Of a stretch of 64,000 nucleotides of DNA, positions 1,656 to 58,383 are shown one piece after another. Each line of letters starts with the position of its first letter. The first letter of the stretch is position 1. A program made the position numbers and the translations under genes. A model generated the notes under the pieces. It saw only the letters and a list, made by a program, of their open reading frames with translations, made no database searches and had not been told where the DNA came from. This stretch comes from Candidatus Adlerbacteria bacterium. GTDB lineage: Bacteria > Patescibacteriota > Minisyncoccia > Phycocordibacterales > SBAW01. Location of the stretch: NCBI GenBank assembly GCA_003135635.1, contig PLCJ01000001.1, positions 8,836-72,835 on the forward strand. The letters are read 5' to 3'.

Positions 1656-1659
1656 ATGA

Positions 1660-3588: not shown

Positions 3589-3654
3589 GTACCTATCCTA
3601 CGATACAATGAGGTCAAATTAAGTGCAGGTAAACCCCTCAGAAAAGTATCCTCC

Positions 3655-4152
3655 TTAGTTACATCCCACCGCAACACTGGCACTACTATTGCTACTAACA
3701 CTTACTATGTACGTGCCTGCTGAGCCTCCAGCAAACTGAGCTGTCCCACTTTCAAGGTACGTGCAAATTTCATAATTCTCTGTTCCGGGAGCACCTGCGC
3801 CGCCTGCTTGAGGAGCCACCATATATTGGCAGGTAGCAGCGGATGTTTTAGTGCAGACGGTCGCTGGAGTAGTTGGATCAAGATAATTTGAGAAGCTAAT
3901 AGGGCTAGGGCCGGTACACGTAGAGGCCATGACGCCGCCACTTACGCACCCGGTAAGGGCTACATTTGTCCCCGTATCAGCCAAGCTTATTGCTTTTCCC
4001 ATTTCCTGCAGAGAGGAAATACGTGCTGCATCGCGTCCTTTTGCCCGAGCGCTGTTAAGAGACACTAAAATGATAGAGGCCAAAATACCAATGATGGCGA
4101 TAACCACCAACAGTTCGATGAGGGTGAAACCACGTTTAAAATGTTTAGACAT
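3655..4152 (-). CDS. Type IV major pilin candidate (PilA-like)
   Basis: MSKHFKRGFTLIELLVVIAIIGILASIILVSLNSARAKGRD; 165 aa, Cys pairs in C-terminal region. Confidence 0.85.
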   Translation of the reverse strand: MSKHFKRGFTLIELLVVIAIIGILASIILVSLNSARAKGRDAARISSLQEMGKAISLADTGTNVALTGCVSGGVMASTCTGPSPISFSNYLDPTTPATVCTKTSAATCQYMVAPQAGGAGAPGTENYEICTYLESGTAQFAGGSAGTYIVSVSSNSSASVAVGCN

Positions 4153-4267
4153 ATATATAATTCATCAATAATTTACACACTTCCTTCACTGCCTCAAGTA
4201 TACCTCGCCCTTAGTATGTCACTTTTTATTGCTGTGGATAATATGTACCTTCCCTTGTAAGCTCTTT

Positions 4268-5482: not shown

Positions 5483-5486
5483 AGCT

Positions 5487-6551
5487 CTACATCATTAACC
5501 GCTCCAGTGTTTTGGGGTTCCAAGAACGTGCGTAGGCGCTCTCTGGAGTAATTTCTCCGGCACGCACGAGATCCGCCAAGCAGCGATTCATATCAATCAT
5601 GCCTTCCTGGGAACTCGTTTCGATGATAGCGTCGATTTCGTGGATACGTTTTTCTCGAATAAGATTTGCAACTGCACTGGTGTTGATAAGAAGTTCATAG
5701 GCAGGAATAAGTCCACCAGAGATGCGCGGTATAAGCCGCTGAGAAAAGATGCCGCTGAGTGTTTCTGCAAGCTGGGCCCGGACTTGTTCCTGCTGACCCG
5801 AAGGAAATGTATCAAGGATACGATCGATAGTTTGGGAAGCGTTGTTGGTATGGAGCGTCGAAAAAACGAGGTGGCCCGTCTCTGCGGCAGTGACCGCAAT
5901 GGCCATTGTCTCTGATGTCCGCATCTCACCTATCATAAGAACGTCAACATCTTGACGAAATACGGATCCCAGTGCTGTTTCAAAGTCAGCGGTATCAATA
6001 CGCACTTCGCGTTGATCAACAATAGAGCGCTTATTTTCAAATAGATATTCGATTGGATCTTCAATGGTAATAATATGCTCGGTGCGTTCGATGTTGATTT
6101 TTTCAAGAAGCGCCGCAAGGGTGGTCGTCTTTCCTTGTCCCACTGGCCCAACTACTAAAAAAAAGCCCTGCTCACGGGTTGCAAACTGCTCAAGCTCTGA
6201 AGGAAGGTTTAATTCTTTTACTGAGCGAATGGTGCGGGGAACTAGCCGGAGTGCAACACCGATATGACCGCGCTCAACAAATGCATTTCCACGGAAACGC
6301 GCAGTATTGCCGTAGGAGAAAGAAAAATCGGCTTCCTGAGTCTGCAAAAACTTCTGTATACGCTCTGGAGAGAGCATGCGCTCAAGTAGACCCCGCACAT
6401 CTTCGTCGCTGAGTTTCGCTTCAGAGAGAAGTGGTGTCAAGATGCTAGAAACACGAATGACTGGATGCGCACCAGCCGACAAATGAAGATCTGATGCACC
6501 TTGTGCGATTACTTGATTGACAAAAGAAGTGAGCAATTGTTCGTAGTTCAT
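5487..6551 (-). CDS. pilT: Twitching motility retraction ATPase PilT
   Basis: Walker A GPVGQGKTTTLAAL, Asp box DVLMIGEMR, His box GHLVFSTLHTNNA; 354 aa. Confidence 0.92.
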   Translation of the reverse strand: MNYEQLLTSFVNQVIAQGASDLHLSAGAHPVIRVSSILTPLLSEAKLSDEDVRGLLERMLSPERIQKFLQTQEADFSFSYGNTARFRGNAFVERGHIGVALRLVPRTIRSVKELNLPSELEQFATREQGFFLVVGPVGQGKTTTLAALLEKINIERTEHIITIEDPIEYLFENKRSIVDQREVRIDTADFETALGSVFRQDVDVLMIGEMRTSETMAIAVTAAETGHLVFSTLHTNNASQTIDRILDTFPSGQQEQVRAQLAETLSGIFSQRLIPRISGGLIPAYELLINTSAVANLIREKRIHEIDAIIETSSQEGMIDMNRCLADLVRAGEITPESAYARSWNPKTLERLMM

Positions 6552-8401
6552 AATTGAATTTCTGTTTGGGGCTCTTCCGATTTCGTCTCTTCTTCTTCTG
6601 TTAGTTCTTTGGGCACAGAAGGAGGAATATCCGCACCAATATCAGAAAGTTCAAATTGGCCCCCAAGGCTATTGACCTCCTCAAACGGAATGACGCCCTT
6701 TACCGCTTTAATGATAGCATCCTCTTTCATCGTGAGCATGCCATCTTTACGTACAATGGAGAACATTTCTTCTTCAGATTTCCTTGCGAGGATGGCGCGT
6801 TCCAATTCCGGCACCATTTCAAAGGCTTCGGATACCGCAATGCGTCCTTTGGTTCCTGTTGGATACTCAAGCGTGGGCTTGATACGATATATTTCCTTAA
6901 GGGCGGGAATCTGATCACGAAATTCCTCTGGCACATCGGCAAATTCATCCTTAATCAGAGCCTCCATGCTGCCTTCAATCGGCATTTTCTGTCCACCTCC
7001 TTGCGGAAGCGTCCGTACGAGACGTTGTGCCATACCCAAAATGAGCACCGGGGGAATAAGATATGGCTCAATTTTCATATCAAGGAGACGCGGCACTATA
7101 CCGATAGCATTGTTGGTGTGTATTGTAGAAAGCACTAAATGGCCAGTGAGTGCAGCCTGCACAGCCAAGTCAGCTGTTTCGGCATCACGAATCTCACCCA
7201 CCATTATGATATTTGGGTCTTGGCGCAAGGTTGTACGCAGTCCGTTGGCAAAGGTATAGCCAATTTCAGGATGAACTTGTGATTGTGAAACCCCAGCAAT
7301 GGTGTATTCAACTGGATCTTCAAGCGAGAGCACATTTTGTCCTTCGCGGTCGATTTCATTGAGAACCGCATACAACGTCGTAGATTTTCCCGATCCAGTA
7401 GGACCAGAGATAAGAACGAGGCCGTAAGGCTTTTTTATAGCAGTACGAATAAGTTTAAGACTGCGGTCTGAAAAACCAAGATTCTCCAGTTTGACTTCTT
7501 GGGCAGACGCGCCAAGAATGCGCATCACCACCTTTTCGCCATAGTAGGTTGGAAAAGTAGAAACACGGAAATCCACCTTATTGCCACCCACCCGTGCAGA
7601 AAAACGGCCGTCCTGAGGCTTCCGTTTTTCATCAAGACGCATATTACAGAGTACTTTGATTCGAGCCACTACCGCTGGATGCACCTTGAGTGGCAACGTA
7701 ATGTTTGTTGAAAGGAACCCATCCACACGAAAGCGTACTCGTGTTTTATCGGCGAGTGGTTCGATATGAATGTCAGATGCTCGCTTCTCAGATGCATGAC
7801 GTAAGATGGTCGCTACAATCTTCGTAATGGGTGCATCAGTGGTGGTAGCATCGCTTGCTGTTTCAGTAATGGTTTCTTCTTGTATCGAAACAGTACGTTT
7901 ATTTTCCTTATCTGTTTTTTTAGTTTCATCAGTGATCTCAACTTCAAGTTCACTGAGAGCCTTCCCCACCTCTCCTGAAAGACCCTTATACTGGCCCATG
8001 ACACGATCAAAATCAGTTTCTGTAATAAGAAACACTTTGTATGGCATTCCTAATTTCGAAGAAATAAAGCTGAGAGCGTCTCGTGCTTCTAAATTGTCTG
8101 GATCAGTAATACCTACCTCAAGCACATTATCTTTGACCGTCAGAGGTACTAGCCCGTAATGTCGAGCAGATTCTTCAGGAATAAGCTGCAAAATATCAAA
8201 GGGTACTTGCTCTTCTCCCACTAAGCGCGTGGGGACAGCATAATATTGTCCTTTGGTCTTTAGGATGTCTTCAAGTGATATCCCCGCCTGGATCAAGAGG
8301 GCTTCTGGGGAGGCACCGGGAGATTTGAGATTCCGTTCTATTTCGGAAACTTTTTTTCGATCAAGTGTACCGTTTTGCAGGAATGTTTGCAGAAGGTCCA
8401 T
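6548..8401 (-). CDS. pilB: Type IV pilus assembly ATPase PilB (GspE family)
   Basis: T2SSE_N domain, Walker A ISGPTGSGKSTTLYAV, DPNIIMVGEIRD, TGHLVLSTIHTNNA; no Cys in the region where the tetracysteine motif usually lies; overlaps pilT start by 4 nt. Confidence 0.92.
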   Translation of the reverse strand: MDLLQTFLQNGTLDRKKVSEIERNLKSPGASPEALLIQAGISLEDILKTKGQYYAVPTRLVGEEQVPFDILQLIPEESARHYGLVPLTVKDNVLEVGITDPDNLEARDALSFISSKLGMPYKVFLITETDFDRVMGQYKGLSGEVGKALSELEVEITDETKKTDKENKRTVSIQEETITETASDATTTDAPITKIVATILRHASEKRASDIHIEPLADKTRVRFRVDGFLSTNITLPLKVHPAVVARIKVLCNMRLDEKRKPQDGRFSARVGGNKVDFRVSTFPTYYGEKVVMRILGASAQEVKLENLGFSDRSLKLIRTAIKKPYGLVLISGPTGSGKSTTLYAVLNEIDREGQNVLSLEDPVEYTIAGVSQSQVHPEIGYTFANGLRTTLRQDPNIIMVGEIRDAETADLAVQAALTGHLVLSTIHTNNAIGIVPRLLDMKIEPYLIPPVLILGMAQRLVRTLPQGGGQKMPIEGSMEALIKDEFADVPEEFRDQIPALKEIYRIKPTLEYPTGTKGRIAVSEAFEMVPELERAILARKSEEEMFSIVRKDGMLTMKEDAIIKAVKGVIPFEEVNSLGGQFELSDIGADIPPSVPKELTEEEETKSEEPQTEIQL

Positions 8402-8407
8402 GACATA

Positions 8408-8767
8408 TTAACGTCCCAAGGTTGGCACGGGTAATTTCGTTGTCTGAGATTGGGGCACACTATTTCCAAATGATGCAAAGGGGTTGTGACGACCAACATT
8501 TTCAGGCGGTATAACAACACCAAAATTTGTAAGAGATACAAACACAGGATCAGTAAATATTGAGCTATCAAGCGTTATCGTGCTAAGGCTTGTCAGCGAG
8601 GTAAGTAGTTTCTGGGAAGCGGGCGAGGAAGAGGAATCTCCTGTCGAAATCAAAAGCGTGCTGCTTGAAGAAGAGTTATTCATGCCAAGGGTATAGTAGA
8701 GAAGGCCGCCGATTACCCCCACAGTGACAATGGTCAAGAGTACATTTTGTTTAATAAAGGTCATCAT
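8408..8767 (-). CDS. Small bitopic membrane protein in pilus operon (PilP/PilO-like accessory?)
   Basis: N-terminal TM (LLTIVTVGVIGGLLYYTL), Ser-rich periplasmic part; only positional evidence. Confidence 0.5.
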   Translation of the reverse strand: MMTFIKQNVLLTIVTVGVIGGLLYYTLGMNNSSSSSTLLISTGDSSSSPASQKLLTSLTSLSTITLDSSIFTDPVFVSLTNFGVVIPPENVGRHNPFASFGNSVPQSQTTKLPVPTLGR

Positions 8768-8770
8768 ACG

Positions 8771-9322
8771 TTAATAGAGCCAATAGGTGCGAAAGGTGAT
8801 GGTATACGTTGTGGTGTTTCCGGTTCCATTTTGAAATGAAAGCTGTGTAATATCGACTATGCGCTCACTATGCTCAAGGTCCTGCAGAAACGCCATGAAC
8901 GTATCGTAATTTGTCGTTACTGAAAACCCAAGTTCTGCAGAACCAACTGGATTGCCAGAAGAGCCCACCGCAGCAATGCCGCCCGTGGTGCTGCTGTTTG
9001 ATGCCGTAGCTAATTTAAGGTTGCTGAGCGATAGGTTATACCGGGATGCAATATTGTTAACATCAATGATAAGACGGATGTTATCTACATTGTCAGGAAG
9101 TATCTGCTGCAATTTATCTACATCACTTTGAGAGAAGGCGTTGCTTTTGGTCAATAGTTGCTGACGCAAACCTTGCAACTGTTGCACTTTACTGAGTGCG
9201 TCATCATACTGCACCCCTTGTGATTGCACTCCTTTGATTTGTTGGTAGGTCGGATTGATATACAAGACAAACAGTCCGATGGCAGCAGCAATTAATATGA
9301 GAGGGATGAATATACGAGTCAT
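8771..9322 (-). CDS. pilO: PilO-like pilus assembly protein
   Basis: N-terminal TM + coiled-coil (QQLQGLRQQLLTK) typical of PilO; operon position. Confidence 0.6.
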   Translation of the reverse strand: MTRIFIPLILIAAAIGLFVLYINPTYQQIKGVQSQGVQYDDALSKVQQLQGLRQQLLTKSNAFSQSDVDKLQQILPDNVDNIRLIIDVNNIASRYNLSLSNLKLATASNSSTTGGIAAVGSSGNPVGSAELGFSVTTNYDTFMAFLQDLEHSERIVDITQLSFQNGTGNTTTYTITFRTYWLY

Positions 9323-9324
9323 AG

Positions 9325-9987
9325 TTATTGAAGAGGAGTAGTTGTGGCGGGAAGGATAGGAATAGAAGAGGAAGCAATGGGTTGTACATTTTGGTTAGAA
9401 GTTGCACCAGTGATAAGCTTGTTGCTGTAAAGAAGGAGAGCCTGGCTAACGTTTGTACTCAGGGTAAAAACCACCTGTCCGGATGTGTTGGTATTAATAT
9501 TAGAGAAAATGATATTTTTGAGCATATTGCTGCTGCCGAACTGGTCGCTTTGAAGCGCAAGAGTCGAAAAGGAATCCGCAATGCCCTGCAAGGTGACAAG
9601 TGCGGAACCATTAGGTTGTAGTTGATAATTAAAACTTGTAAATTGGACGTTTAATAGTGTCTGCTGCGAGAGAAAATCAAAAAGAGCAGAGGGAGCCACA
9701 TGCCCGGCAAGCAAAATCTTTGCCTGCAGTATCCGGTTATCCATGCGAACAAGATCATTAATGGAAGAAAGATCAATTGCGCTTTGGTCTTTTTGCAGTA
9801 CAGCGCTTTTATTTGCAATAGATTGGTTCAGATACTGCTCATACCCAAATACCAGCCCAGCTGCAACTAGTGATACTATGAAAATTAACAGCGCAATTAA
9901 AAACAAAAGCCCCGCTCCTTCTCCATGAGAAGGACCCGGAGTAAAAGATTTTTTCGGTATAAAGGACGCGGGAGCTTGAGGATCCAT
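9325..9987 (-). CDS. pilN: PilN-like pilus assembly protein
   Basis: Short cytoplasmic N-term, single TM (LLFLIALLIFIVSLVAAGLVF), follows pilM. Confidence 0.6.
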   Translation of the reverse strand: MDPQAPASFIPKKSFTPGPSHGEGAGLLFLIALLIFIVSLVAAGLVFGYEQYLNQSIANKSAVLQKDQSAIDLSSINDLVRMDNRILQAKILLAGHVAPSALFDFLSQQTLLNVQFTSFNYQLQPNGSALVTLQGIADSFSTLALQSDQFGSSNMLKNIIFSNINTNTSGQVVFTLSTNVSQALLLYSNKLITGATSNQNVQPIASSSIPILPATTTPLQ

Positions 9988-10037
9988 CAGTATTAGTATA
10001 CCGTTAAAAATTCCACAACTGCGGATCTATCAACAGA

Positions 10038-11117
10038 TTAGGCGATTTCCTGCAAACGCCGCAGCGCAAGGCCTACCGCAACAGAAAACTCTGGTCCTGC
10101 TTCTTTAAGAACACCTTCCAGAAATGCTGGCGCCTGTGTTTTTCCAAAAGGATCGGCAAGTCGAATTTCGTTTTGTAACTTACTCTGTGCAAAATCTTTA
10201 AGCCCCTTGAGGGTGGCGCTTCCTCCGGTGACCACCATGGTGCTGAGCGATTGGTTCATGCGCTGCTCGTAGGCAGCAATGGTGCGTGATACCTCCGACA
10301 GCAAGGGTGTTACGGAAAGAGCGAGCGTCTGAGTAAGATCGGGGCCCCCCTCCGGCATAAGGCCAAATTTTCTCTTGCGCTCTTCCGCTTGAGAGACACT
10401 AATATTAAGTGCACGGGAAGCGGCAAGTGTTAAATCTTGGCCTCCGTGATTAATAATATGGCTTTCGCGAATGAGTCCTCGTTCAACCACATAAAACTTT
10501 GTTGTCGCCGCGCCCATGTCAACCACTGCAACCGGCGCAATACCGCGATCAAGGGATGCTCGCACCGCACTAAATACTTCTATTTCAAAAAATGCTAGGG
10601 TAAGTCCGGCATCGCTGACAATACTTTTGAATTTAGCGATGGTATCGTTGTGTATGGCGACTAAAAGTACTTCAAGCTTACTTCCTGGCGTTGCTTCTTT
10701 GCCTCCGCCGGAGAGTACAAACCAATCAAGTAGTACTTCATTTATGGGAACTGGAATATACTTGCGTGCTTCAAGGGGTACCACTTGTGCAAGCTGCTTT
10801 TCGACAGACGCGGGCAATTTCAATATCGAAATAAGGCTCAAGGCATAAGGAATGGAGATTGCTACATCAGTAGTGGTGACACGCGCTTCACGAATCACAT
10901 CTTTAAGCGCTTCAGCGATCTTTTCAGTAGGCAAAGAGGTTGCACGACCAATTTCAAGACCGGCGTATGGCCCAAGGGCGATAGCACCATATGTTTCAAG
11001 TATCACCCGTCCATGTTCACGCCTGAGTTGTACCACCTTGATTGAAGAAGTGCCGACATCGACCCCAATGACACTCTTTTGTTCTTTGGAGAATAATGAT
11101 GAAAAAGAAAAGGCCAT
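10038..11117 (-). CDS. pilM: Type IV pilus assembly protein PilM (actin-like ATPase)
   Basis: SVIGVDVGTSSIKVVQL..., FtsA/actin fold motifs; start trimmed to ATG 11117 (MAFSFSSLFSKEQK) removing 44-aa ORF extension. Confidence 0.88.
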   Translation of the reverse strand: MAFSFSSLFSKEQKSVIGVDVGTSSIKVVQLRREHGRVILETYGAIALGPYAGLEIGRATSLPTEKIAEALKDVIREARVTTTDVAISIPYALSLISILKLPASVEKQLAQVVPLEARKYIPVPINEVLLDWFVLSGGGKEATPGSKLEVLLVAIHNDTIAKFKSIVSDAGLTLAFFEIEVFSAVRASLDRGIAPVAVVDMGAATTKFYVVERGLIRESHIINHGGQDLTLAASRALNISVSQAEERKRKFGLMPEGGPDLTQTLALSVTPLLSEVSRTIAAYEQRMNQSLSTMVVTGGSATLKGLKDFAQSKLQNEIRLADPFGKTQAPAFLEGVLKEAGPEFSVAVGLALRRLQEIA

Positions 11118-11233
11118 CAGGGAGTAGTATACCACTGTGTAGAAAGAGATTTGTGGCTCTAGGGCCTTCTGGTGTATACGTTTTCCGTCAGACTGAGTAT
11201 CTGGTACATTTATGAAGCAAAGGAAAGAATTAC

Positions 11234-11785
11234 GTGGTTGTTTCGTCATTACCTATGGAGCATAAAGATAAAGAAGAGGAGTTTCGGGAGGTATTCGAAA
11301 AACACTCAGATGAGTTATTTCGGCACTGCCACCTGCGCCTCTCTGATCGAGAGCGAGCGGTCGAGCTCACGCAGGAGACCTTCCTGCGGGCGTGGGAGTA
11401 CGTCTCCAAAGGAAATGTGGTTAAAAATTATCGACCTTTTCTCTATCGCATTCTCAACAACCTTGTTGTAGACGAATACCGTAAGAAAAAATCTCAGTCA
11501 CTGGATGCCCTTCTTGAAGATGAAGAAACAGTGGTTTCAATCGAAGGAGAATTTCTGCGGGATGAATCCGATGCGCTTGAAGCCGCTATGATTCGGTTTG
11601 ATGCGGCTCATGCTATTGAGGCTCTAAAAAAACTTCCCCAGCAGTATCAGGTTGTTCTTATTATGCGCTACGTTGATGGCTTTTCTTCTACGGAAATTGC
11701 CGCATATATGAAAGAAAAAGAAAACGCGATCGCGGTGCGCATCCACCGGGGCCTTCGGAAACTACGCGATATGCTTGAACTATAA
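11234..11785 (+). CDS. ECF-type RNA polymerase sigma factor (sigma-70 regions 2 and 4)
   Basis: ETFLRAWEYVSKG region 2; VVLIMRYVDGFSSTEIAAYM...RIHRGLRKLRDML region 4; alternative start at 11255 (MEHKDKEE). Confidence 0.85.
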   Translation: MVVSSLPMEHKDKEEEFREVFEKHSDELFRHCHLRLSDRERAVELTQETFLRAWEYVSKGNVVKNYRPFLYRILNNLVVDEYRKKKSQSLDALLEDEETVVSIEGEFLRDESDALEAAMIRFDAAHAIEALKKLPQQYQVVLIMRYVDGFSSTEIAAYMKEKENAIAVRIHRGLRKLRDMLEL

Positions 11786-20794: not shown

Positions 20795-21409
20795 CTATTC
20801 TTTATCAGCAAATACCACTAGTCGATCGGAGTAACTTTTCTGAGCCTTATTCCAAACTCCCTGGCACGTGATGAGATTAAGGTGTGCTTTTCCATCGCTT
20901 GAATTAAACACACTTGAGGCATCCTCATTCTGGTCATATGTCCGAACTTCGCGTACCACGAAAGTAGTTATTGTTCCTGTTTCATCTTCAACGTATATTT
21001 TGTCTCCTTTCTGCAATTTATATAAATTATCAAATACCGCTGGTATGCCATTTTTCCAGCCGAAGTGCCCGACAATAACAGCACTACCATTTTCTCCGGG
21101 ACGTGGTCCGAGATCAAACCAGGCTGCGTTAACGGGACCTTCCGGTACCCCCACTGCTCCTTGAGGCGTAAGACCCACAGATTCGAGGGCGGCATCAACA
21201 TTAATCTTTGGAATTTCGAGATGCACTGGCAATCCAGAATTCACTTTTTCTTGTTCATACAGAGCAGAGGTGTTTGCGGCAAGTGCTATCGGGACGTTCT
21301 GAGTCGGGCTTCTTAAGAAAAAAAGGAAAACAAACACTAAAGAAAGCGCAACTCCTGCGAAGGTGATTATTACTAGTGTTCGCCTTAATAAGGTTTTCGA
21401 TATATTCAT
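20795..21409 (-). CDS. Sortase (transpeptidase), membrane anchored
   Basis: N-terminal TM, LEIPKINVDAAL, VGHFGW, catalytic LITC motif; start trimmed to ATG 21409 (MNISKTLL). Confidence 0.85.
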   Translation of the reverse strand: MNISKTLLRRTLVIITFAGVALSLVFVFLFFLRSPTQNVPIALAANTSALYEQEKVNSGLPVHLEIPKINVDAALESVGLTPQGAVGVPEGPVNAAWFDLGPRPGENGSAVIVGHFGWKNGIPAVFDNLYKLQKGDKIYVEDETGTITTFVVREVRTYDQNEDASSVFNSSDGKAHLNLITCQGVWNKAQKSYSDRLVVFADKE

Positions 21410-21512
21410 ACACAACTCAGAAGAGCCAGACCAGCCTTGCTCCTTGGTCTGGCTCTTCTTGCTTACCGGCAGGCAAGGCAAACAATTTTGTTAACTCTCT
21501 TCAAGACTTGGA

Positions 21513-23099
21513 CTACATTGTTAGTTCCTTTCGAGCTAGATAGAACGAGAACAGGGCAAGGAAAATTCCAGTCGGAATGATGATATTCCATGGAGTATTC
21601 CCTTCAGGAGGAAGTCCTGTATTGGGCAAACCAGGAGCAGTTACAGCGACAGTAGCGGGTGAGAAATCGATGGCGGTCAAACCATTGGCACTTCCCTCGG
21701 CCGTGCCGATGTTTGTTGTTGTTTGTGTAAGGTGCGTTTGGCAAGTGAAAGTCCATGTTTCATTACTATCAAGCAGACCATTGTGATTGAGGTCTCCCGG
21801 ATTTCCCAAGACGAGGCCTGGTAGACCGGTACATTTATTGTCAGTAACACTGACATTATTCAGTGGCACTATACCGGGGTTGGTTACCGTGTACGTGTAG
21901 GTAACTGCTCCACCGCCTGCAGGAAGAACAAACACGCTGGGCTTTTTTACTAGGTGGATTAACGGCGGCGTCAATGGCAGTCCAACAACGACAGTTGCGT
22001 TTGCGGTGTCGTACGTGTCCCAACCATTAGCCTGACCATGAGCAGTAGCTGTATTTGTCTGAGTTTGAGAAACTGTTTTAGTACAGTTGTATATCCATGT
22101 TTCAGTTACATCAAGCATTGAGTCATGGTTGGTATCGCCAGATACATATGTTACAGGACTACACATATTGTCCTTGACCCACACACCATGCATTGCAACT
22201 GTGCTTAGATTGGTCGCTGTGTATATGTAAGTAACAGATCCAGGTCCTGAAGGTAAAGCTAAAGGATTTGGTACTTTTATAATGTCAATAAGTGGTAATA
22301 CCGCAAAACTACCGCCACCAGCACCAGGTCCAGATGGTGGGGGAGGAGGAACCACACACGTCGCTTTGATAACGTGAGTATTATTTAATGTAACCGCAGC
22401 ATTTCTTGCCAGAAGTCTTCCGTTGACAGTTGAACCGCCGTTATCTGTGATCGATTGTAAGGCTAGTATATTTCCCTTGAAATCGGAGCCCGTTCCAAGT
22501 GTTGCAGAACTGGTGACTTGCCAAAAGACGTTGCAAGCCTGGGCACCGTTGATCAAGGTTACATGGCTTGCTGATGCTGTGGTTAGCGTGGAGCCCGCTT
22601 GAAAGATGAAGACTGCATTGGGATCGCCACCGGCATCGAGTGTAACCGTTCCGGTGATTGCAAACGAGCTGGGGTCATTGTAAACACCAGGTGTCAGCAC
22701 TGCCCCCCCGAGGTCATGGATCGGACCGTACGTTGTAGTCGGTGTTTGTCCTGCGGCGTTTGTGTAGGCCGCAGTCAGAGAAGTTTGGGCTGCACCCACT
22801 AAGACTGGGTTATTTCCCGCGGCACCTGCAGGACCAGTGGCGTCAACGGCATATATCGTGCCCGTTACTTCTCCTGTAGTTAACACCGGCGTAAGATAAA
22901 AGGTACCTGCGGCTGGACTCAATCCAACATCCCCGCTAATAACAGAGGGAGTAGTGTCCGTAATCGCCGAGCCGGCCAGAACTGCAAAACTATCCGCAGT
23001 GCCAAGACTTACCGTCGTCGCAGCTCTGACTAGCCCAGCCAGACCAAACGTAAACGCAACAGTCAGTACAACTACTGAAACCTTATTAAATATTTTCAT
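21513..23099 (-). CDS. LPXTG-anchored surface protein: N-terminal DUF3494 (ice-binding-like) domain + two DUF11/TIGR01451 repeat domains
   Basis: Signal peptide; LGTADSFAVLAGSAIT...ISGDVGLSP; Pro-rich linker PPPPPSGPGAGGG; C-terminal LPNTG + hydrophobic helix + RKE tail. Confidence 0.85.
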   Translation of the reverse strand: MKIFNKVSVVVLTVAFTFGLAGLVRAATTVSLGTADSFAVLAGSAITDTTPSVISGDVGLSPAAGTFYLTPVLTTGEVTGTIYAVDATGPAGAAGNNPVLVGAAQTSLTAAYTNAAGQTPTTTYGPIHDLGGAVLTPGVYNDPSSFAITGTVTLDAGGDPNAVFIFQAGSTLTTASASHVTLINGAQACNVFWQVTSSATLGTGSDFKGNILALQSITDNGGSTVNGRLLARNAAVTLNNTHVIKATCVVPPPPPSGPGAGGGSFAVLPLIDIIKVPNPLALPSGPGSVTYIYTATNLSTVAMHGVWVKDNMCSPVTYVSGDTNHDSMLDVTETWIYNCTKTVSQTQTNTATAHGQANGWDTYDTANATVVVGLPLTPPLIHLVKKPSVFVLPAGGGAVTYTYTVTNPGIVPLNNVSVTDNKCTGLPGLVLGNPGDLNHNGLLDSNETWTFTCQTHLTQTTTNIGTAEGSANGLTAIDFSPATVAVTAPGLPNTGLPPEGNTPWNIIIPTGIFLALFSFYLARKELTM

Positions 23100-23116
23100 A
23101 TATCTTATTTGTTAAT

Positions 23117-24295
23117 CTAATAATGTGCACTTATATAGCCTCTCGTTATTGGTCCGAAATTTCCCAGAGCTGGGCTAATCCCCACACTCGCTTGAAACTC
23201 AGCCAATGCTGCACGGGTCAGAGCGCCAAAATAAGCAGTCGCGCCAACGTTAGCCAAGGCTTGAGCAGCTGGACCTTTATTTTGGGAAATCAAAAACTGT
23301 TGAAGGATTGTTACATTGTTATTACTCTTGCCTTTTTGAAGATTGACCGCGATCGTTCGAATTTGTTGGCCAGAAGCGGAAGATGCAGTGGCAGTTGCAT
23401 TAGTAGTCGGAACTGTAGATTGCGTAACTGGATAGACATACACATATCCTCCTCCACTACCACCACTGGATGATGAACTAACTGGCACTGTGGAAGTGGG
23501 GGTTGTAGCGGGGGTTGGAGTTGGAGTCATAACCACAGTGGAAGGAATAGTGACAGAATTCGCATTTAATGTAACTGCACTTTGCGCCAACGCTCTACCA
23601 ATTAATTGTGCACCAGTGTTCAGCACAATCGCTGTTTGATCTAATATATTTCCATTAAAGACAGCGGTCGTACCGATGGTCGTTTGACCGGCAACAACCC
23701 AAAAAACATTACCAGCCTGGGCACCGCCAGCAAGAACTATGTTTGTAGCGGAGCTAATACTAAGATTTTGCGCTACCTGAAAAATCCAGACATCATTGGC
23801 ACCACCAGAGAGAGTGACATTTGTTGGTATTGTTACATTAGTACTCCATTTATAGAGCCCAGGAGCGATTGTCAGTCCGCCAATATTTCCCGCTCCAAGT
23901 TCAGTCGCGGTCGGATTTGTCCTTCCAGCGGCATCGACGTACGCGGCTTGCATATCATTGACCGCAGCAGTTACAGTAGCAGGAGTTGGGTTAGCATAAT
24001 CCGGGGCATATATATTTCCAGTTACTAAGGCTGATGTGGAAAATGCACTCGCTGCGGGAAGAATTAACGCAAATCCGGTTATATAACTCGCGGCTGCCGG
24101 ACTGAGTCCAAGATTTCCAACAATGGAGGTGGATCCGGTAGTTGAGATTCCTGTTTTTGCCAGAATCACAAAATTACCTGCCGTTCCAAGATTTACTGCT
24201 GCCGGGCCGGCCGCAAGCGCAGTAATTGGCCCAGCGAGAACAAGCACCGAGGCGGCGGTTAATATAACTACCGAAACCTTATCAAATATTTTCAT
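23117..24295 (-). CDS. Secreted DUF3494 (ice-binding-like) protein with C-terminal peptidoglycan-binding (PG_binding_1-like) domain
   Basis: Paralogous N-terminus (MKIFDKVSVVILT vs MKIFNKVSVVVLT, near-identical DNA around start codons); LGTAGNFVILAKTGIST...VGNLGLSP; C-terminal LQQFLISQ...YFGALTRAALAEFQ. Confidence 0.8.
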   Translation of the reverse strand: MKIFDKVSVVILTAASVLVLAGPITALAAGPAAVNLGTAGNFVILAKTGISTTGSTSIVGNLGLSPAAASYITGFALILPAASAFSTSALVTGNIYAPDYANPTPATVTAAVNDMQAAYVDAAGRTNPTATELGAGNIGGLTIAPGLYKWSTNVTIPTNVTLSGGANDVWIFQVAQNLSISSATNIVLAGGAQAGNVFWVVAGQTTIGTTAVFNGNILDQTAIVLNTGAQLIGRALAQSAVTLNANSVTIPSTVVMTPTPTPATTPTSTVPVSSSSSGGSGGGYVYVYPVTQSTVPTTNATATASSASGQQIRTIAVNLQKGKSNNNVTILQQFLISQNKGPAAQALANVGATAYFGALTRAALAEFQASVGISPALGNFGPITRGYISAHY

Positions 24296-24797
24296 AATAT
24301 TATTTTTTTATAAGCGATTATTGGGAAATTATTAAATACACGTGGAGGTTACGGAATCTCGAAATTCCGAATGGTTGATAATGGTTTAATGGGTTGTTTG
24401 GACAATTGGGGGGCAAGAAGGGGGGTTAATGCCTTTCTTCTTATAGTCTACCCCCAATAAGCTTGCAATACCAACCCCTTGTGCATAATTGGGAAAGAAT
24501 TGACTCTAGGCAAAGGGTAGCAGTACGGCGGATCCTTGCGAATTTGCTTTATAACATGGGGACTTTCGGGGCGCACTGCAGCCATACCTCTGATAAAAAA
24601 TACCCTGTGCGGTGGGGGTTGGTCTCGGAATAAGACGTATGAGGCAGTGTAAGAGTTTTGGGACGAGTTAGCGACTCAGGAAACTGAGGGGGAACGGTCG
24701 GGATTTCCATCGCACCTCGCCTACTCCGAGTGCCGCTCGGAGGCTCTCGACTCTTTTCAGGAAGAGGGTGCCGTTCAGAAATAAAGCGCGGCGACTC

Positions 24798-25340
24798 TCA
24801 TTTAGGCTCCTGGCCGTATGCCTCATCTTGGACATTTGCGTCCGCGGCCACTTTGGTAACTTCGATAGTTCCGTCGATATGGTTTGGCGGAGCATAGACT
24901 GTATAGAGTTTGAGCGGGACGGTACCCGTGTTTATGAAATTATGCAGCGTTCCGGGCGTAACCACAACGACATCACCTGGGCCAATGGGGCTGATCTTTC
25001 CATTTAAGACCGCCTCTCCTGTGCCACTCACAAAGAACAGTGTCTGCTCGGTGTAGATATGTGTTTCCGCACCAATTTCCCCGCCGGGTGGAATGCTCTG
25101 GATGACAAGCTGGCTTCTGGTACCAGTAAAAAGAACTTTTCGAAAATCAGTATTTTGCTGTGTTTCTTGAACTATATTTCCCAGGTATGACATATTGGCT
25201 TTGCTATCTATTTGAGTGACACTGTAGACTACTCCGTCACCTTGTTTAGTTTGATAATAGAAATACATCCCGACCAAGGCGGCGATAAGAACTACTATGA
25301 CTACTACCAACGCTGAGTTACCTTGTTGTACTTTTTTCAT
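24798..25340 (-). CDS. Membrane-anchored cupin domain protein
   Basis: N-terminal TM, GGEIGAETHIYTEQTLFFVSGTG...GDVVVVTPGTLHNF cupin motifs. Confidence 0.75.
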   Translation of the reverse strand: MKKVQQGNSALVVVIVVLIAALVGMYFYYQTKQGDGVVYSVTQIDSKANMSYLGNIVQETQQNTDFRKVLFTGTRSQLVIQSIPPGGEIGAETHIYTEQTLFFVSGTGEAVLNGKISPIGPGDVVVVTPGTLHNFINTGTVPLKLYTVYAPPNHIDGTIEVTKVAADANVQDEAYGQEPK

Positions 25341-25568: not shown

Positions 25569-25656
25569 GCGGAGGCGGAAGGATTCGAACCTTCGGACCA
25601 GTTTCCCGGTCAGCAACTTAGCAGGTTGCTGCTTTCGACCGCTCAGCCACGCCTCC
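25569..25656 (-). tRNA. tRNA-Ser (anticodon GCU)
   Basis: Minus strand GGAGGCGTGGCTGAGCGG...CTGCTAA anticodon loop (GCT), long variable arm GACCGGGAAACTGGTCC, T-arm GAAGGTTCGAATCCTTC, acceptor closed; no encoded CCA. Confidence 0.88.
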
Positions 25657-27972: not shown

Positions 27973-28044
27973 GCGCGAGTAGCTCAATGGTAGAGCATCC
28001 GTCTTATACACGGACGGCTCCTGGTTCGAGTCCAGGCTCGCGCA
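27973..28044 (+). tRNA. tRNA with anticodon UAU (tRNA-Ile(UAU)-like)
   Basis: GCGCGAG acceptor, D-arm GCTCAATGGTAGAGC, anticodon arm TCCGT-CTTATAC-ACGGA (U33, anticodon TAT, A37), T-arm CCTGGTTCGAGTCCAGG, 3' CTCGCGC+A; followed by CC. Confidence 0.8.
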
Positions 28045-28073
28045 CCGGAGGTTTAGCAGTATACTAATGTCGT

Positions 28074-30538: not shown

Positions 30539-30915
30539 GGGGATGCATTGTCTAGACAATAGAATCATGTGGTCGGCAGTGCGAAGTAGAAGTCCGGAAC
30601 TTCTCTAACACTCCGGAAAACTATAACTGCCAAATCAGTTAGTTCGCCGTATTTCTCGGCGAATAATTTCGCGTTCGCCTACGCTAAGGCCTAACGCGAC
30701 ACTCGCTGCACAACGCTCGTACGTGCAGGCTTGGGTGTCATAATATCGAGCTGCATTGATAAGAGCGCTTTCTCTTATTAATAAAGATTTAGAGCTTAGA
30801 TACAAAATGGTTTTGTCTGTTTTTTACATTTTGTATCGAAACTATAAATAGACTACGCTTTGTAGAAACACCACCACTTCTCTGTTGCACGCGAGCTCAC
30901 TACTCGCCATCTCCA
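30539..30915 (+). ncRNA. ssrA: tmRNA (ssrA) candidate
   Basis: 5' GGGGAUG... pairs with 3' CAUCUCC-A (G3:U wobble, tRNA-Ala identity); T-arm-like GCGAG-CTCACTA-CTCGC just before acceptor; internal ORF GCC AAA...GCC TAA (30629-30694) with B. subtilis-like ACUGCCAAAUC resume context, proposed tag ending ...ANNFAFAYAKA*; directly downstream of smpB. Confidence 0.6.
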
Positions 30916-30944
30916 CAAATAAAGTTGGAATCACTTGTTTGTGC

Positions 30945-31761: not shown

Positions 31762-33471
31762 ATGAATTCTCGCTATATTTCCAAACTATTTTACGGAGTC
31801 ACAGTTCTTTGCGTAGTTGTCTTTTCTGTCTCGGTAGCAAGCAGCGTACAGGCGCAGCAACTGCCTATATCGGGCACGCTTACCTGCACCTCTCTTTCTT
31901 ATAACCTCCGGGAAGGATCTACTGATGCATATACGGGCGGAGAGGTAAGTAGATTACAGACCTTTTTGAATCAGGAAAACTATTTTCCCTATGCGGCAGT
32001 AGGTATCTTTGGTCCAGTAACGTATACATCCGTACGAAATTTTCAAGCGGCCCACGGCATATCTAGTACAGGATACGTTGGACCGATAACGAGAGCCGCG
32101 ATTCAACAAATGTCTTGCGGGGGCGCTACGAATATTCCAACGTCAGGTCTTTCACTCCAGTCGTTATCGCCTAATTTAGTAGCGATAGGAAATACGGTAA
32201 CGCTATATGGTACAGGATTTACTTCTGACAATACCATTCTCCTTGCGAGCGGGGCGATTGCTCACGTAGCTTCATATAATGGGACTTCTCTTTCCTTTAC
32301 TGTGCCAAGCACCATCGGGCCAGATTGCTCGGGAACCACTCTGTGTCCAGATTGGATAAGACAGCTTACTCCCGGCACATATAACGTATCTATTGAAAAT
32401 ACATACGGCACTAGCAACACACTGACGTTAACAATTACAGCAAACGGAATAATTCAAGGGGGATATCAATCTCCTGTCATCTCTAGTATCAGCGCTCCTA
32501 CACAATTAACTGTAGGTCAAACAGGAACGTGGACTGTCTATGCCACTAGTCAAACGCAAAATGGGCAGCAACTGAACTATGCAGTTAATTGGGGTGATGG
32601 ATCAAATAATCCATACTCTCAAAACTTCTCTGCTTCAACGGTGTCTTCTGGAACATTTACCCATGCGTATAGTAGTCCAGGCACCTATACTTCCACTTTT
32701 ACAGTCACGGATAGCAATGGTCAATCAAACTCAGCAAGTGCTTCAGTCATAGTGAGTGGACAGCAAAACCAAACTTCAAGCCTGTACATTCAATCACTCT
32801 CACCTTCTTCAGGAGTTGTTGGAACTACGGTGACTATATATGGCTCTGGTTTTACCTCTAATGACACGGTCAACTTCCAAGGCCAAGGAAACGCTTACGT
32901 GAGTTCTGTATCTAGTAATGGGACTTCTCTTTCCTTTACTGTGCCAAGCACATTGACTCAAACTGGATCGGTGACCGGAACTGGATACTGTGCGGTTTCT
33001 TGGACCTGTTCCTATCCTCCTACGAGTCCAGGAATATATAACGTCTCAGTCACAAATGGAAATGTTACCAGCAATGCGCTCCCTTTCACTGTTACCACTG
33101 GCAGTACTAGTAATATTTCTGCCACTCCTTCCATCCAATCACTTTCACCAATATCAGGAATAGTAGGAACAATCGTGACAATATATGGATCAGGATTTAC
33201 TTCTAATGATGTTATAGATTTTGGTACCACTGTATTTTCAGCAGACGTCCTCAATCCCATATCTATATCTAACGATGGAACGAGCATCTCTTTCACTATC
33301 CCGAGTACATGGTCGTCGGGGTTTCTCTGCCCCACAGATATTGTGTGCTCTCCAGTTTTTATAGTTCCAGGAACTTACGGTGTATGGGTTGCCAATATTA
33401 GTACAAACAAGATAAGTAACGCTCTTAGCTTCACCGTCATCAGCTCGGGACAAACGAGAACTCTTCAATAA
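31762..33471 (+). CDS. Secreted wall-associated protein: N-terminal peptidoglycan-binding domain + three IPT/TIG-like repeats + PKD-like domain
   Basis: Signal peptide; LQTFLNQENYFPYAAVGIFGPVTYTSVRNFQAAHGI; repeats IQSLSPxSGxVGTxVTIYGSGFTSND...NGTSLSFTVPST x3; NWGDGS...THAYSSPGTYTSTFTVTDSNG PKD signature. Confidence 0.75.
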   Translation: MNSRYISKLFYGVTVLCVVVFSVSVASSVQAQQLPISGTLTCTSLSYNLREGSTDAYTGGEVSRLQTFLNQENYFPYAAVGIFGPVTYTSVRNFQAAHGISSTGYVGPITRAAIQQMSCGGATNIPTSGLSLQSLSPNLVAIGNTVTLYGTGFTSDNTILLASGAIAHVASYNGTSLSFTVPSTIGPDCSGTTLCPDWIRQLTPGTYNVSIENTYGTSNTLTLTITANGIIQGGYQSPVISSISAPTQLTVGQTGTWTVYATSQTQNGQQLNYAVNWGDGSNNPYSQNFSASTVSSGTFTHAYSSPGTYTSTFTVTDSNGQSNSASASVIVSGQQNQTSSLYIQSLSPSSGVVGTTVTIYGSGFTSNDTVNFQGQGNAYVSSVSSNGTSLSFTVPSTLTQTGSVTGTGYCAVSWTCSYPPTSPGIYNVSVTNGNVTSNALPFTVTTGSTSNISATPSIQSLSPISGIVGTIVTIYGSGFTSNDVIDFGTTVFSADVLNPISISNDGTSISFTIPSTWSSGFLCPTDIVCSPVFIVPGTYGVWVANISTNKISNALSFTVISSGQTRTLQ

Positions 33472-42687: not shown

Positions 42688-42723
42688 ATAATCGCCAAGT
42701 TTAGTCATAAAAAATTTTTCTAC

Positions 42724-44028: not shown

Positions 44029-44035
44029 TTGAATT

Positions 44036-58274: not shown

Positions 58275-58383
58275 TATCTTCACATTATATACGCTACACA
58301 GGAAAATTAGAGTGACGTGCACGGGTGACACAAAGGCATTTGACATATGCGACCGTCTCATATATCATGTGTACATCTGGCAG

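What the first reader, a model, noticed from the sequence alone, without database searches (positions are those of the whole stretch)
20795..24295. Sortase plus two paralogous DUF3494 (ice-binding-like) wall proteins using different anchoring modes
A membrane sortase (LITC active site) is followed by a 528-aa DUF3494 protein. That protein ends in LPNTG + hydrophobic helix + RKE, a classical sortase substrate. Next comes a 392-aa paralog with near-identical signal-peptide DNA but a non-covalent peptidoglycan-binding domain instead of LPXTG. The pair is therefore a recent duplication followed by anchor swapping. DUF3494 domains act as adhesins or ice-binding modules elsewhere. Two wall-tethered copies beside their sortase suggest a dedicated attachment module, plausibly for host contact.
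Basis: partly seen in the sequence, partly recalled or inferred. Interest (0 to 1): 0.6.

Follow-up and report, generated by a model that had tools for sequence, protein, structure and literature searches.

The report
Sortase cassette displaying ice-binding-like proteins
This is a three-gene cell-surface cassette from a Patescibacteria (CPR) bacterium: two secreted "ice-binding-like" beta-solenoid proteins, one sortase-linked and one apparently held by a peptidoglycan-binding domain, plus their sortase; it is real and found across related genomes, but built from known, already auto-annotated parts.

Summary
On the minus strand, in order of transcription, lie three genes. The first is a 392-aa DUF3494 protein with a C-terminal PG_binding_1-like domain. 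The second is a 528-aa DUF3494 protein with two CLIPPER_2 (DUF7507) stalk domains and an LPNTG sorting signal. The third is a 204-aa class-F-like sortase.

The "recent duplication" reading is wrong. The two heads are 42% identical in protein and 54% in DNA. Each has its own orthologues at 58-79% identity in other Patescibacteria. The shared 5' DNA covers only 33 nt (30/33 identical). It encodes a signal-peptide start, MK[IK]FNK[VI]S, that recurs in both paralogue families.

The long protein is followed by a sortase in about 25 of 27 patescibacterial loci. The full three-gene order is present in 4 of 4 loci found through the short protein. Three relatives fuse substrate and sortase into one polypeptide.

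Most likely this is a dedicated surface-display module for beta-solenoid binding heads. The ligand is unknown. Ice binding is not excluded, because the short protein's head is 68% identical to a crystallised protein deposited as an ice-binding protein from Candidatus Cryosericum odellii.

It is a new member of a known kind. Interest is modest.

The parts
23117..24295 (-). Gene 1, 'P-type': 392-aa secreted DUF3494 protein with a peptidoglycan-binding-like C-terminus
   Evidence: ORF. PF11999 E=8.5e-74. Identical protein on a 263,578-bp public contig. More than 100 full-length orthologues at 58-79% identity.
24212..24295 (-). P-type signal peptide (residues 1-28, MKIFDKVSVVILTAASVLVLAGPITALA|AG)
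   Evidence: Read from the sequence. Hydrophobic segment. Model helix 5-26. The cleavage site is inferred.
23549..24166 (-). P-type Ice_binding (DUF3494) beta-solenoid head, residues 44-249
   Evidence: Pfam. E=2.6e-88 and 68% identity to PDB 9LHN (deposited as an ice-binding protein of Ca. Cryosericum odellii).
23342..23548 (-). P-type Thr/Pro/Ser/Gly-rich linker, residues about 250-318, predicted disordered
   Evidence: Sequence. pLDDT below 50 for residues 251-324. Poorly conserved in orthologues.
23120..23323 (-). P-type C-terminal PG_binding_1-like helical domain, residues about 325-392
   Evidence: PF01471 at 20.8 bits (below the cut-off of 23). 59 of 59 orthologues hit at E<=0.01. Strongly conserved across orthologues. 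Helical but low-confidence model.
21513..23099 (-). Gene 2, 'L-type': 528-aa DUF3494 protein with two CLIPPER_2 domains and an LPNTG signal; the sortase substrate
   Evidence: ORF. Pfam. AlphaFold2 model with pLDDT 88.7 and pTM 0.84.
23022..23099 (-). L-type signal peptide (residues 1-26, ...GLAGLVRA|AT)
   Evidence: Sequence. Model helix 4-21. The cleavage site is inferred.
22371..22982 (-). L-type Ice_binding (DUF3494) head, residues 40-243
21984..22289 (-). CLIPPER_2 (DUF7507) stalk domain 1, residues 271-372, with candidate isopeptide triad K275/D310/N349 and Cys313/Cys339
   Evidence: Pfam. Beta-sandwich in the model. Triad 92-100% conserved and the cysteines invariant. Family definition from PMC12617251.
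21642..21965 (-). CLIPPER_2 stalk domain 2, residues 379-486, with candidate triad K385/D420/N463 and Cys423/Cys453
   Evidence: Pfam residues 379-471. All five residues invariant in 76 sequences.
21516..21629 (-). Cell-wall sorting signal: LPNTG (residues 491-495), spacer, hydrophobic helix 504-527, RKELTM tail
   Evidence: Sequence. Model helix. 116 of 120 homologues carry a [LFI]PxTG-like motif in the last 50 residues, LPNTG in 70.
21419..21459 (-). Stem-loop (16 pairs) between the L-type stop codon and the sortase start
   Evidence: Fold of 21400-21520: -39.3 kcal/mol, z=-3.6. Strong folding in the same position (z<-2) in 16 of 29 intervals examined, counting this window twice. Its role as an attenuator or RNA stabiliser is inferred.
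20795..21409 (-). Gene 3: 204-aa membrane-anchored class-F-like sortase (hydrophobic segment about residues 6-36; His115, Cys182 in LITC, Arg196)
   Evidence: PF04203 E=9e-25. NF033748 class F is the best class at 133 bits (cut-off 166). Catalytic residues in conserved columns. Homologues at 58-74% identity are named 'class F sortase' by NCBI.
24798..25340 (-). Possible accessory gene: 180-aa Cupin_2 protein with an N-terminal hydrophobic segment, 502 nt upstream on the same strand
   Evidence: Cupin_2. Homologues at 65-73% identity sit inside or beside the cassette in L004, L016, L017 and L082. Association only; the function is unknown.

Best explanation
This is a conserved patescibacterial surface-display operon.

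Both DUF3494 proteins are exported through cleavable signal peptides.

The 528-aa L-type protein is the substrate of the sortase encoded just downstream. It would be held in the membrane by its C-terminal helix and short basic tail. The sortase (Cys182/His115/Arg196) would cut LPNT|G and transfer the protein to a peptidoglycan precursor. The beta-solenoid head then ends up covalently attached to the wall on a stalk of two Ig-like CLIPPER_2 domains. Each stalk domain is probably locked by a Lys-Asn isopeptide bond and a disulfide.

The 392-aa P-type protein carries a different, anciently diverged head. A roughly 70-residue disordered Thr/Pro/Ser linker joins it to a C-terminal PG_binding_1-like domain that would hold it on the wall non-covalently.

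A strong stem-loop between the substrate gene and the sortase gene probably lets the substrates be made in excess over the enzyme.

The heads are binding modules for a flat, regular surface. I think a conserved envelope or matrix component of a partner cell, or of the bacterium's own surface, is more likely than ice in most carriers.

Shown: the domain content, the motifs, and their conservation, synteny and fusions. Inferred: export, sortase cleavage and wall attachment, isopeptide formation, the role of the hairpin, and the ligand.
For: - Domain assignments.
- High-confidence model with the layout signal helix, beta-solenoid, two beta-sandwiches, terminal helix.
- Sorting signal conserved in 116 of 120 homologues.
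- Sortase catalytic residues in conserved columns.
- A sortase adjacent to the L-type gene in about 25 of 27 patescibacterial loci with differing flanks.
- P-type, L-type, sortase order in 4 of 4 loci found through the P-type protein.
- In-frame L-type::sortase fusions in P0107, L017 and L008. P0107 and L017 are 54% identical across the junction, so the fusion is inherited rather than an assembly error.
- K/D/N triads and Cys pairs (nearly) invariant. Their spacing matches the CLIPPER_2 triad reported in PMC12617251.
- PG_binding_1 hit in 59 of 59 orthologues.
- Strong folding after the L-type stop codon (z<-2) in 16 of 29 intervals.
- Only one LPXTG substrate in the 64-kb window, so the sortase has one evident client here.
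Against: - Nothing has been tested biochemically.
- PG_binding_1 is below Pfam's cut-off in this protein, and its model has low confidence (pLDDT 50-67).
- The sortase is below NCBIfam's class F cut-off.
- No Gram_pos_anchor or LPXTG-anchor model was listed in either scan. The basic tail is weak (RKELTM).
- The ligand is unknown.
- The cassette is unusually conserved. The P-type protein is 72% identical between genomes whose RecG is 38% identical. That fits a housekeeping envelope role or horizontal transfer better than host-specific adhesion.
- The P-type head is 68% identical to a protein deposited as an ice-binding protein.
Confidence: 0.6

Rival explanations
1. The heads are true ice-binding modules. 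The cassette would coat the cell with ice-binding proteins, either to hold it to ice or to inhibit ice recrystallisation around it. This would resemble the proposed DUF3494 ice adhesin of Shewanella frigidimarina.
For: - The P-type protein scores E=2.6e-88 and is 68% identical to 9LHN. That entry was deposited as an 'ice binding protein from Candidatus Cryosericum odellii'.
- A survey of fibrillar adhesins lists Ice_binding as an adhesive head domain whose ligand is ice: PMC8286594.
Against: - NCBIfam's ice-binding equivalog NF045625 is far below its cut-off: 159 and 235 bits against 400.
- The T-[A/G]-x-[T/N] motifs of FfIBP (TGIT, TGIN, TAVT) are matched strictly at none of the three aligned sites in the L-type head (SAIT, QSIT, NAAV). 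By my own hand transfer through the L/P alignment, none is matched in the P-type head either (TGIS, TAIV, SAVT). This motif is a weak predictor.
- Record titles of close homologues carry sample prefixes (GW2011, RIFCSP, CG1_02/CG10, Zod_Metabat, nzgw) that I recall as unfrozen aquifers and springs. That reading comes from memory, not from a tool.
- DUF3494 is described in the literature as present in substrate-binding as well as ice-binding proteins: PMC12337378.
Confidence: 0.2
2. The L-type protein is a subunit or tip of a sortase-assembled pilus or fibre, not a monomeric wall-anchored protein.
For: - The stalk domains are CnaA-like isopeptide domains of the kind used in pilins and fibrillar adhesins.
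- Several relatives (L004, L010, L012, L024, L082) carry a second module. It comprises a roughly 300-aa CLIPPER_2-only protein with a sorting signal and a second sortase fused to PG_binding_1. That pair could serve as shaft protein and polymerising enzyme.
Against: - The window has a single sortase. It scores 133 bits against the class F model and 34 bits against class C.
- There is no second LPXTG protein in 64 kb.
- I saw no YPK-type pilin motif in the L-type sequence (read by eye).
- The second module is absent from the window. The rest of the genome could not be examined.
Confidence: 0.1
3. The pair is a structural part of the bacterium's own envelope, for example a spacer or coat organising the wall or S-layer, rather than an adhesin for other cells.
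For: - Both proteins are strongly conserved relative to a housekeeping neighbour: P-type 72% versus RecG 38% against L085.
- The paralogue pair is kept together across genomes with different flanks.
- The PG_binding_1-like domain is among the most conserved segments.
Against: - P-type genes are missing upstream of the L-type gene in many L-type loci.
- In some loci (L021, L023, L024, L025) the upstream partner is instead another LPXTG-anchored DUF3494 protein. The set is therefore modular rather than fixed.
- High identity to a Cryosericota protein suggests horizontal transfer, which would also explain the conservation.
Confidence: 0.1

Closest known systems
Fibrillar-adhesin-like LPXTG surface proteins (adhesive head, isopeptide-stabilised CLIPPER/CLIPPER_2 stalk, sorting signal), as surveyed in PMC8286594 and PMC12617251
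   Same: The layout is the same: signal peptide, N-terminal binding head, tandem CnaA-like Ig stalk domains with a conserved Lys/Asp/Asn triad, and a C-terminal LPXTG signal. Ice_binding is already listed as a head domain of such proteins.
   Different: The stalk is very short (two domains). Some proteins found with this stalk region reach 2,000-7,000 residues with many matched stretches. The gene sits in a fixed cassette with its own sortase and a second, differently anchored DUF3494 protein. The host is a Patescibacteria genome. No paper in the searched library pairs DUF3494 with sortase or with Patescibacteria.
DUF3494 ice-binding proteins with solved structures: ColAFP 3WP9, FfIBP 4NU2, EfcIBP 6EIO, Ca. 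Cryosericum odellii protein 9LHN
   Different: Those proteins were crystallised as head-only constructs of about 220-255 residues. Here both heads carry wall anchors. Neither protein reaches the NCBIfam ice-binding equivalog cut-off. Ice activity is untested.
SfIBP_1 of Shewanella frigidimarina (PDB 6BG8), a DUF3494 domain attached to Ig-like domains and proposed as an ice adhesin
   Different: The organism type and the anchoring of SfIBP_1 are recalled from memory, not tested. Here anchoring is by LPXTG and sortase, and the stalk domains belong to CLIPPER_2.
Class F sortases (NCBIfam NF033748; the one studied enzyme I recall is the housekeeping SrtF of Cutibacterium acnes)
   Same: Class F is by far the best-scoring class (133 bits; the next class-specific model, class C, scores 34). 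The protein has a hydrophobic N-terminal segment and the His/Cys/Arg triad. NCBI names homologues at 58-74% identity 'class F sortase'.
   Different: It scores below the family cut-off of 166 bits. Here it is a dedicated enzyme next to a single substrate rather than a housekeeping sortase with many clients. Similar pairings of DUF3494 proteins with sortases occur in Actinomycetota with non-canonical xPxTG signals.
'Choice-of-anchor' surface proteins (choice-of-anchor A / pAdhesive_15, PF20597), ice-binding-like heads found with alternative C-terminal anchors
   Same: The principle is the same: one beta-solenoid head type is displayed through interchangeable anchors (10.1101/2023.03.06.531300). 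In related loci the upstream partner is either PG_binding_1-anchored or LPXTG-anchored.
   Different: It is a different Pfam family. PF11999 is the Ice_binding hit reported here, and PF20597 is not among the reported hits. The PG_binding_1 option is not among the three anchors listed for that family in the paper.

Membership tests
Sortase (PF04203) | Match to the sortase domain model above the curated cut-off | tested here: met
   87.3 bits against a cut-off of 26.6, E=9e-25.
Sortase (PF04203) | Catalytic His, Cys (TLxTC-type motif) and Arg, plus a membrane anchor | tested here: met
   His115, LITC with Cys182, and Arg196 sit in conserved columns of a 27-sequence alignment. There is an N-terminal hydrophobic segment at about residues 6-36.
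Class F sortase (NCBIfam NF033748) | Score at or above the curated family cut-off | tested here: not met
   133.3 bits against a cut-off of 166. It is still the best class by about 100 bits. Close homologues are named class F by NCBI. I therefore call it class-F-like.
LPXTG cell-wall sorting signal | Tripartite C-terminus (LPXTG, hydrophobic segment, basic tail) on a protein with an N-terminal signal peptide | tested here: met
   LPNTG at residues 491-495, model helix 504-527, tail RKELTM, N-terminal signal helix. The motif is present in 116 of 120 homologues. No anchor model was listed in either scan, and the tail carries only a weak positive charge.
LPXTG cell-wall sorting signal | Cleavage by sortase and covalent linkage to peptidoglycan | not testable with these tools
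   Supported indirectly by conserved adjacency and by natural substrate::sortase fusions.
Ice_binding / DUF3494 (PF11999) | Domain model match and beta-solenoid-plus-helix fold | tested here: met
Ice-binding protein, functional equivalog (NCBIfam NF045625 IBP_CFB) | Score at or above the equivalog cut-off | tested here: not met
   158.9 and 235.5 bits against a cut-off of 400.
Ice-binding protein, functional | T-[A/G]-x-[T/N] motifs at the three FfIBP sites | tested here: not met
   The L-type head has SAIT, QSIT and NAAV at the aligned sites. The P-type head has TGIS, TAIV and SAVT by my own hand transfer through the L/P alignment. This gives 0 of 3 strict matches each. It is a weak criterion.
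Ice-binding protein, functional | Measured ice affinity, thermal hysteresis or recrystallisation inhibition | not testable with these tools
CLIPPER_2 / DUF7507 (PF24346), a CnaA-like isopeptide domain | Domain model match above the cut-off and an Ig-like beta-sandwich | tested here: met
   47.3 bits against a cut-off of 27, two stretches. Two all-beta domains at residues 271-372 and 382-486, with block-mean pLDDT of 93-98 over most of their length.
CLIPPER_2 / DUF7507 (PF24346), a CnaA-like isopeptide domain | Lys/Asp/Asn triad for the intramolecular isopeptide bond | tested here: met
   K275/D310/N349 and K385/D420/N463 are 92-100% conserved. Their spacing resembles the reference triad K72/D112/N152. 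Bond formation itself cannot be tested here.
PG_binding_1 (PF01471) | Domain model match above the curated cut-off | tested here: inconclusive
   This protein scores 20.8 bits against a cut-off of 23, E=4.5e-4. 59 of 59 orthologues match at E<=0.01, best 2.3e-6. The model is helical but has low confidence.
Sortase-assembled pilus | Class C pilin sortase, at least two LPXTG pilin genes, and a YPKN-type pilin motif | tested here: not met
   Class C scores 34 bits against a cut-off of 160. There is one LPXTG protein in 64 kb. I saw no YPK motif in the L-type sequence (read by eye).

The most novel reading that the evidence does not exclude
Class-F-like sortases would be dedicated display enzymes for DUF3494 beta-solenoid proteins across Patescibacteria, and perhaps Actinomycetota. 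This conserved cassette would be a principal contact organelle, alongside type IV pili, by which these ultrasmall bacteria recognise a partner's surface. The natural single-chain L-type-LPNTG-sortase proteins seen in relatives would be self-processing sortase substrates.
Probability: 0.15. Interest if true: 0.6.

Novelty: new member of a known kind. Interest (0 to 1): 0.3.

Why it matters
Patescibacteria are thought to live attached to other cells. Their known attachment equipment is mostly type IV pili, and a full pilus cluster lies in this same window.

A second, widely conserved, covalently wall-anchored surface module is therefore a sensible candidate for study in the few culturable members. 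It also gives class F sortases a concrete, recurrent client. It adds thousands of sequences from apparently ice-free habitats to a family that is named for ice binding.

None of this changes how sortases or such adhesins are understood to work. The genes are already auto-annotated correctly in public records.

Tried and rejected
1. Recent tandem duplication or gene conversion. I rejected it on divergence and on each paralogue having its own orthologues. The 5' identity covers only 11 codons. Identical codons at identical residues are 8/11 there against 45/101 elsewhere. The same N-terminal peptide recurs in both families in other genomes.

2. A riboswitch or known RNA in the 502-nt spacer upstream of gene 1. 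Rfam gave nothing at gathering level. The E-value search gave only a chance miRNA hit. Folding is only mildly better than shuffles (z=-2.05).

3. A sigma-70 promoter scan of the region gave fewer hits than shuffles (3 against 6.6). It was uninformative.

4. Confirming the PG-binding domain by structure. The P-type model had low confidence there, so I did no fold search on that domain.

5. Literature. No paper in the held library pairs DUF3494 or 'ice-binding' with sortase, LPXTG or Patescibacteria in a relevant way. No paper was found for PDB entries 9LHN/9LI0.

6. Organism name. The exact-sequence look-up returned no names. The Patescibacteria/Minisyncoccota assignment rests on the names of the nearest homologues.

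7. Other LPXTG substrates and a second sortase. None is present in the window.

Full report
**What is there**

The region 20795-24295 holds three ORFs, all on the minus strand. In order of transcription they are:
- a 392-aa protein (24295..23117), called P-type here;
- a 528-aa protein (23099..21513), called L-type here, which starts 17 nt after the P-type stop codon;
- a sortase.

The sortase ORF can be read from a TTG at 21481. The public gene call on the identical contig starts at the ATG at 21409 and gives 204 aa. A strong stem-loop occupies 21419-21459. I therefore take 21409..20795 as the gene.

**Domain content**

- The sortase matches PF04203 (E=9e-25).
- The L-type protein matches PF11999 Ice_binding/DUF3494 (E=1.6e-61) and has two stretches of PF24346. 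It also hits TIGR01451.
- The P-type protein matches PF11999 (E=8.5e-74). It also has a PG_binding_1 match that falls just under Pfam's cut-off (20.8 against 23 bits).
- A Pfam scan of 59 P-type orthologues hit PG_binding_1 in all 59 (E<=0.01, best 2.3e-6). The C-terminal 65 residues are among the best-conserved parts of the family. The assignment is reasonable at family level but not proven for this protein.
- PF24346 has been renamed CLIPPER_2. It is described as a CnaA-like Ig domain that often carries a Lys-Asn isopeptide bond catalysed by an Asp (PMC12617251).
- In alignments of 109 and 76 L-type homologues, K275/D310/N349 and K385/D420/N463 are 92-100% conserved. Three cysteine pairs are invariant: 189/248, 313/339 and 423/453.

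**Structure**

An AlphaFold2 model of the L-type protein, built on 76 sequences, is confident (pLDDT 88.7, pTM 0.84). It shows, in order:
- a signal helix;
- a beta-solenoid with a long helix at residues 98-117;
- a proline/glycine linker;
- two beta-sandwiches at 271-372 and 382-486;
- LPNTG at 491-495;
- a terminal helix at 504-527.

The P-type model is weaker (pLDDT 66.6). It shows the solenoid, a disordered Thr/Pro/Ser linker and a helical C-terminus.

**The sortase**

It has an N-terminal hydrophobic segment. His115, Cys182 (within LITC) and Arg196 sit in conserved columns. Among the NCBIfam class-specific models, class F scores 133 bits and the next, class C, scores 34. The curated class F cut-off is 166, so I call the enzyme class-F-like. 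NCBI names homologues at 58-74% identity 'class F sortase' in Jorgensenbacteria, Saccharimonadales and Minisyncoccia.

**Is it a unit?**

Yes. The evidence is as follows.
- The L-type protein retrieved 80 loci from species-representative genomes.
- In the patescibacterial loci a sortase lies next to the L-type gene in about 25 of 27 cases, almost always immediately downstream, although the flanking genes differ.
- 116 of 120 homologues keep a [LFI]PxTG-type motif in the last 50 residues. LPNTG is the form in 70 of them.
- A P-type gene sits directly upstream in L001, L012, L017 and (truncated) L013.
- Starting instead from four P-type orthologues, all four loci have the order P-type, L-type, sortase.
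- Three relatives encode the L-type protein and the sortase as one ORF (P0107, L017, L008). The LPxTG motif is kept, but both the substrate's C-terminal helix and the sortase's N-terminal anchor are absent. Only one hydrophobic segment remains, at the N-terminus.
- P0107 and the L017 ORF are 54% identical along 760 residues, including the junction. The fusion is therefore inherited, not an assembly error. This is Rosetta-stone evidence that the two proteins work together.
- The 64-kb window has no other LPXTG-type protein.

**The duplication claim**

The two heads are 42% identical in protein and 54% in aligned codons. The following points argue against a recent duplication.
- P-type orthologues in other genomes are 75-78% identical to the window's P-type head. 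They are only about 39% identical to its L-type head.
- Actinobacterial DUF3494 domains are 52-59% identical to the L-type head. That is closer than the neighbouring paralogue.
- The P-type head is 68% identical to PDB 9LHN from Candidatus Cryosericum odellii. This is as close as many patescibacterial orthologues are (58-79%).

The duplication is therefore old, and horizontal transfer of the heads is likely.

The 5' DNA identity is real but short. It is 30/33 nt, then 61% over the next 11 codons. The encoded start, MKIF[ND]KVS, belongs to a motif, MK[IK]FNK[VI]S, seen in both families in other genomes.

The broader idea that such heads swap anchors over evolutionary time does hold. In L021, L023, L024 and L025 the upstream partner is another LPXTG-anchored DUF3494 protein instead of a PG_binding_1-anchored one.

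**How it most likely works**

Both proteins are exported. The L-type protein is retained by its sorting signal, cut by the sortase at LPNT|G and joined to a peptidoglycan precursor. Its head then stands on two cross-linked Ig domains. The P-type protein binds the wall non-covalently through its C-terminal domain, on a flexible linker.

The stem-loop after the L-type stop codon (z=-3.6) has counterparts at the same position. 16 of the 29 intervals examined fold with z<-2, and that count includes this window twice, as the window and as L081. I read it as an attenuator or a 3' stabiliser that keeps substrate expression above sortase expression. This reading is an inference.

All steps after domain content are inferred from what is established for sortases and LPXTG proteins.

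**What the heads bind**

This is unknown. Ice cannot be excluded, given the similarity to crystallised ice-binding proteins. Several points weigh against it.
- Both proteins are far below the NCBIfam ice-binding equivalog cut-off.
- Neither head keeps strictly any of the three FfIBP T-[A/G]-x-[T/N] motifs. The L-type sites come from the alignment. The P-type sites are my own transfer by eye through.
- Close homologues carry sample prefixes that I recall, from memory only, as unfrozen aquifers and springs.
- Published work already treats this fold as a general surface-binding scaffold.

The cassette is much more conserved than the neighbouring RecG: 72% against 38% for L085. That fits a conserved ligand, an envelope role or horizontal transfer better than fast-evolving host-specific adhesion.

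**Comparison and novelty**

The L-type protein fits the published description of fibrillar-adhesin-like proteins, which already lists Ice_binding as a head domain and CLIPPER_2 as a stalk domain. An exhaustive search with the stalk region found 616 cluster representatives at E<=1e-30, including proteins of 2,000-7,000 residues.

Public records already name these genes 'ice-binding family protein' and 'class F sortase'. No paper in the searchable library pairs DUF3494 with sortase or with Patescibacteria.

I rate it a new member of a known kind, of modest interest. The substrate::sortase fusions seen in relatives are the most unusual lead.

Noticed in passing
Related loci, not the window: P0107 (775 aa); L017 3696-6077; L008 1314-3170: These are natural in-frame fusions of the L-type protein and the sortase. 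LPNTG/FPKTG is kept, but the substrate's C-terminal helix and the sortase's N-terminal anchor are both missing. The only hydrophobic segment is at the N-terminus. P0107 and L017 are 54% identical across the junction. They may be self-processing sortase substrates.
   Followed up: partly
window 24798-25340 (-): This is a 180-aa Cupin_2 protein with an N-terminal hydrophobic segment, just upstream of the cassette. Homologues at 65-73% identity lie upstream of the P-type gene (L017), between the L-type gene and the sortase (L004, L082), or after the L-type gene (L016). It may be a fourth, optional cassette member.
   Followed up: partly
window 21419-21459 (-), and the same position in L003, L004, L006, L010, L012, L013, L014, L018, L084, L085 and others: A long, near-perfect stem-loop lies between the L-type stop codon and the sortase start. 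The structure is conserved but the sequence is not. No clear U-tract follows it in the window.
   Followed up: partly
L004 4867-6893; L010 5931-7988; L012 11765-13779; L024 4842-6622; L082 10353-12469: A second module occurs in some relatives. It comprises a CLIPPER_2-only protein of about 210-320 aa with a sorting signal, followed by a sortase fused to PG_binding_1 with a C-terminal hydrophobic segment. It is absent from this 64-kb window.
   Followed up: no
L035, L049, L054, L060-L062, L064, L065, L068, L078, L080 (Actinomycetota): DUF3494 proteins followed by a sortase also occur in Acidimicrobiia and other Actinomycetota. Most of these DUF3494 proteins end in non-canonical signals (SPHTG, APGTG, APKTG, NPPTG, GVDTG) followed by a hydrophobic segment and an Arg-rich tail.
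   Followed up: partly
window 503-11249 (-): A complete type IV pilus cluster is present: PilM, PilN, PilO, a PilB-like ATPase (617 aa), a PilT-like ATPase (354 aa), PilC, three N-methyl pilins and a prepilin peptidase. A further PilB-like ATPase lies at 56544-58361.
   Followed up: no
window 31762-33471 (+): This is another probable wall-associated surface protein of 569 aa. It has a clear N-terminal PG_binding_1 domain (47 bits) followed by PKD and TIG domains.
   Followed up: no
window 41797-42708, 42724-44091, 44429-45490 (-): Three consecutive ORFs of 303, 455 and 353 aa have no Pfam match at E<=1e-4. They lie between the EF-Tu and EF-G genes.
   Followed up: no
window 24296-24797: A 502-nt non-coding spacer lies between the Cupin_2 gene and the P-type gene. 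It has no Rfam match, and its folding is only mildly better than shuffles (z=-2.05). The equivalent gap in L017 is about 105 nt.
   Followed up: yes
window 27973-28046 (+), 25569-25656 (-), 30539-30918 (+): ARAGORN calls a tRNA-Ile with anticodon TAT, which as I recall is uncommon in bacteria. A tRNA-Ser(GCT) and a tmRNA are also present. The public gene calls list an SmpB gene next to the tmRNA region.
   Followed up: no
PDB 9LI0 versus 9LHN, compared with alignment A2: The two substitutions in the engineered Cryosericum protein (M74I, A97V) change it to the residues that are the consensus in patescibacterial P-type heads (SYITGF, GKVYAP).
   Followed up: no
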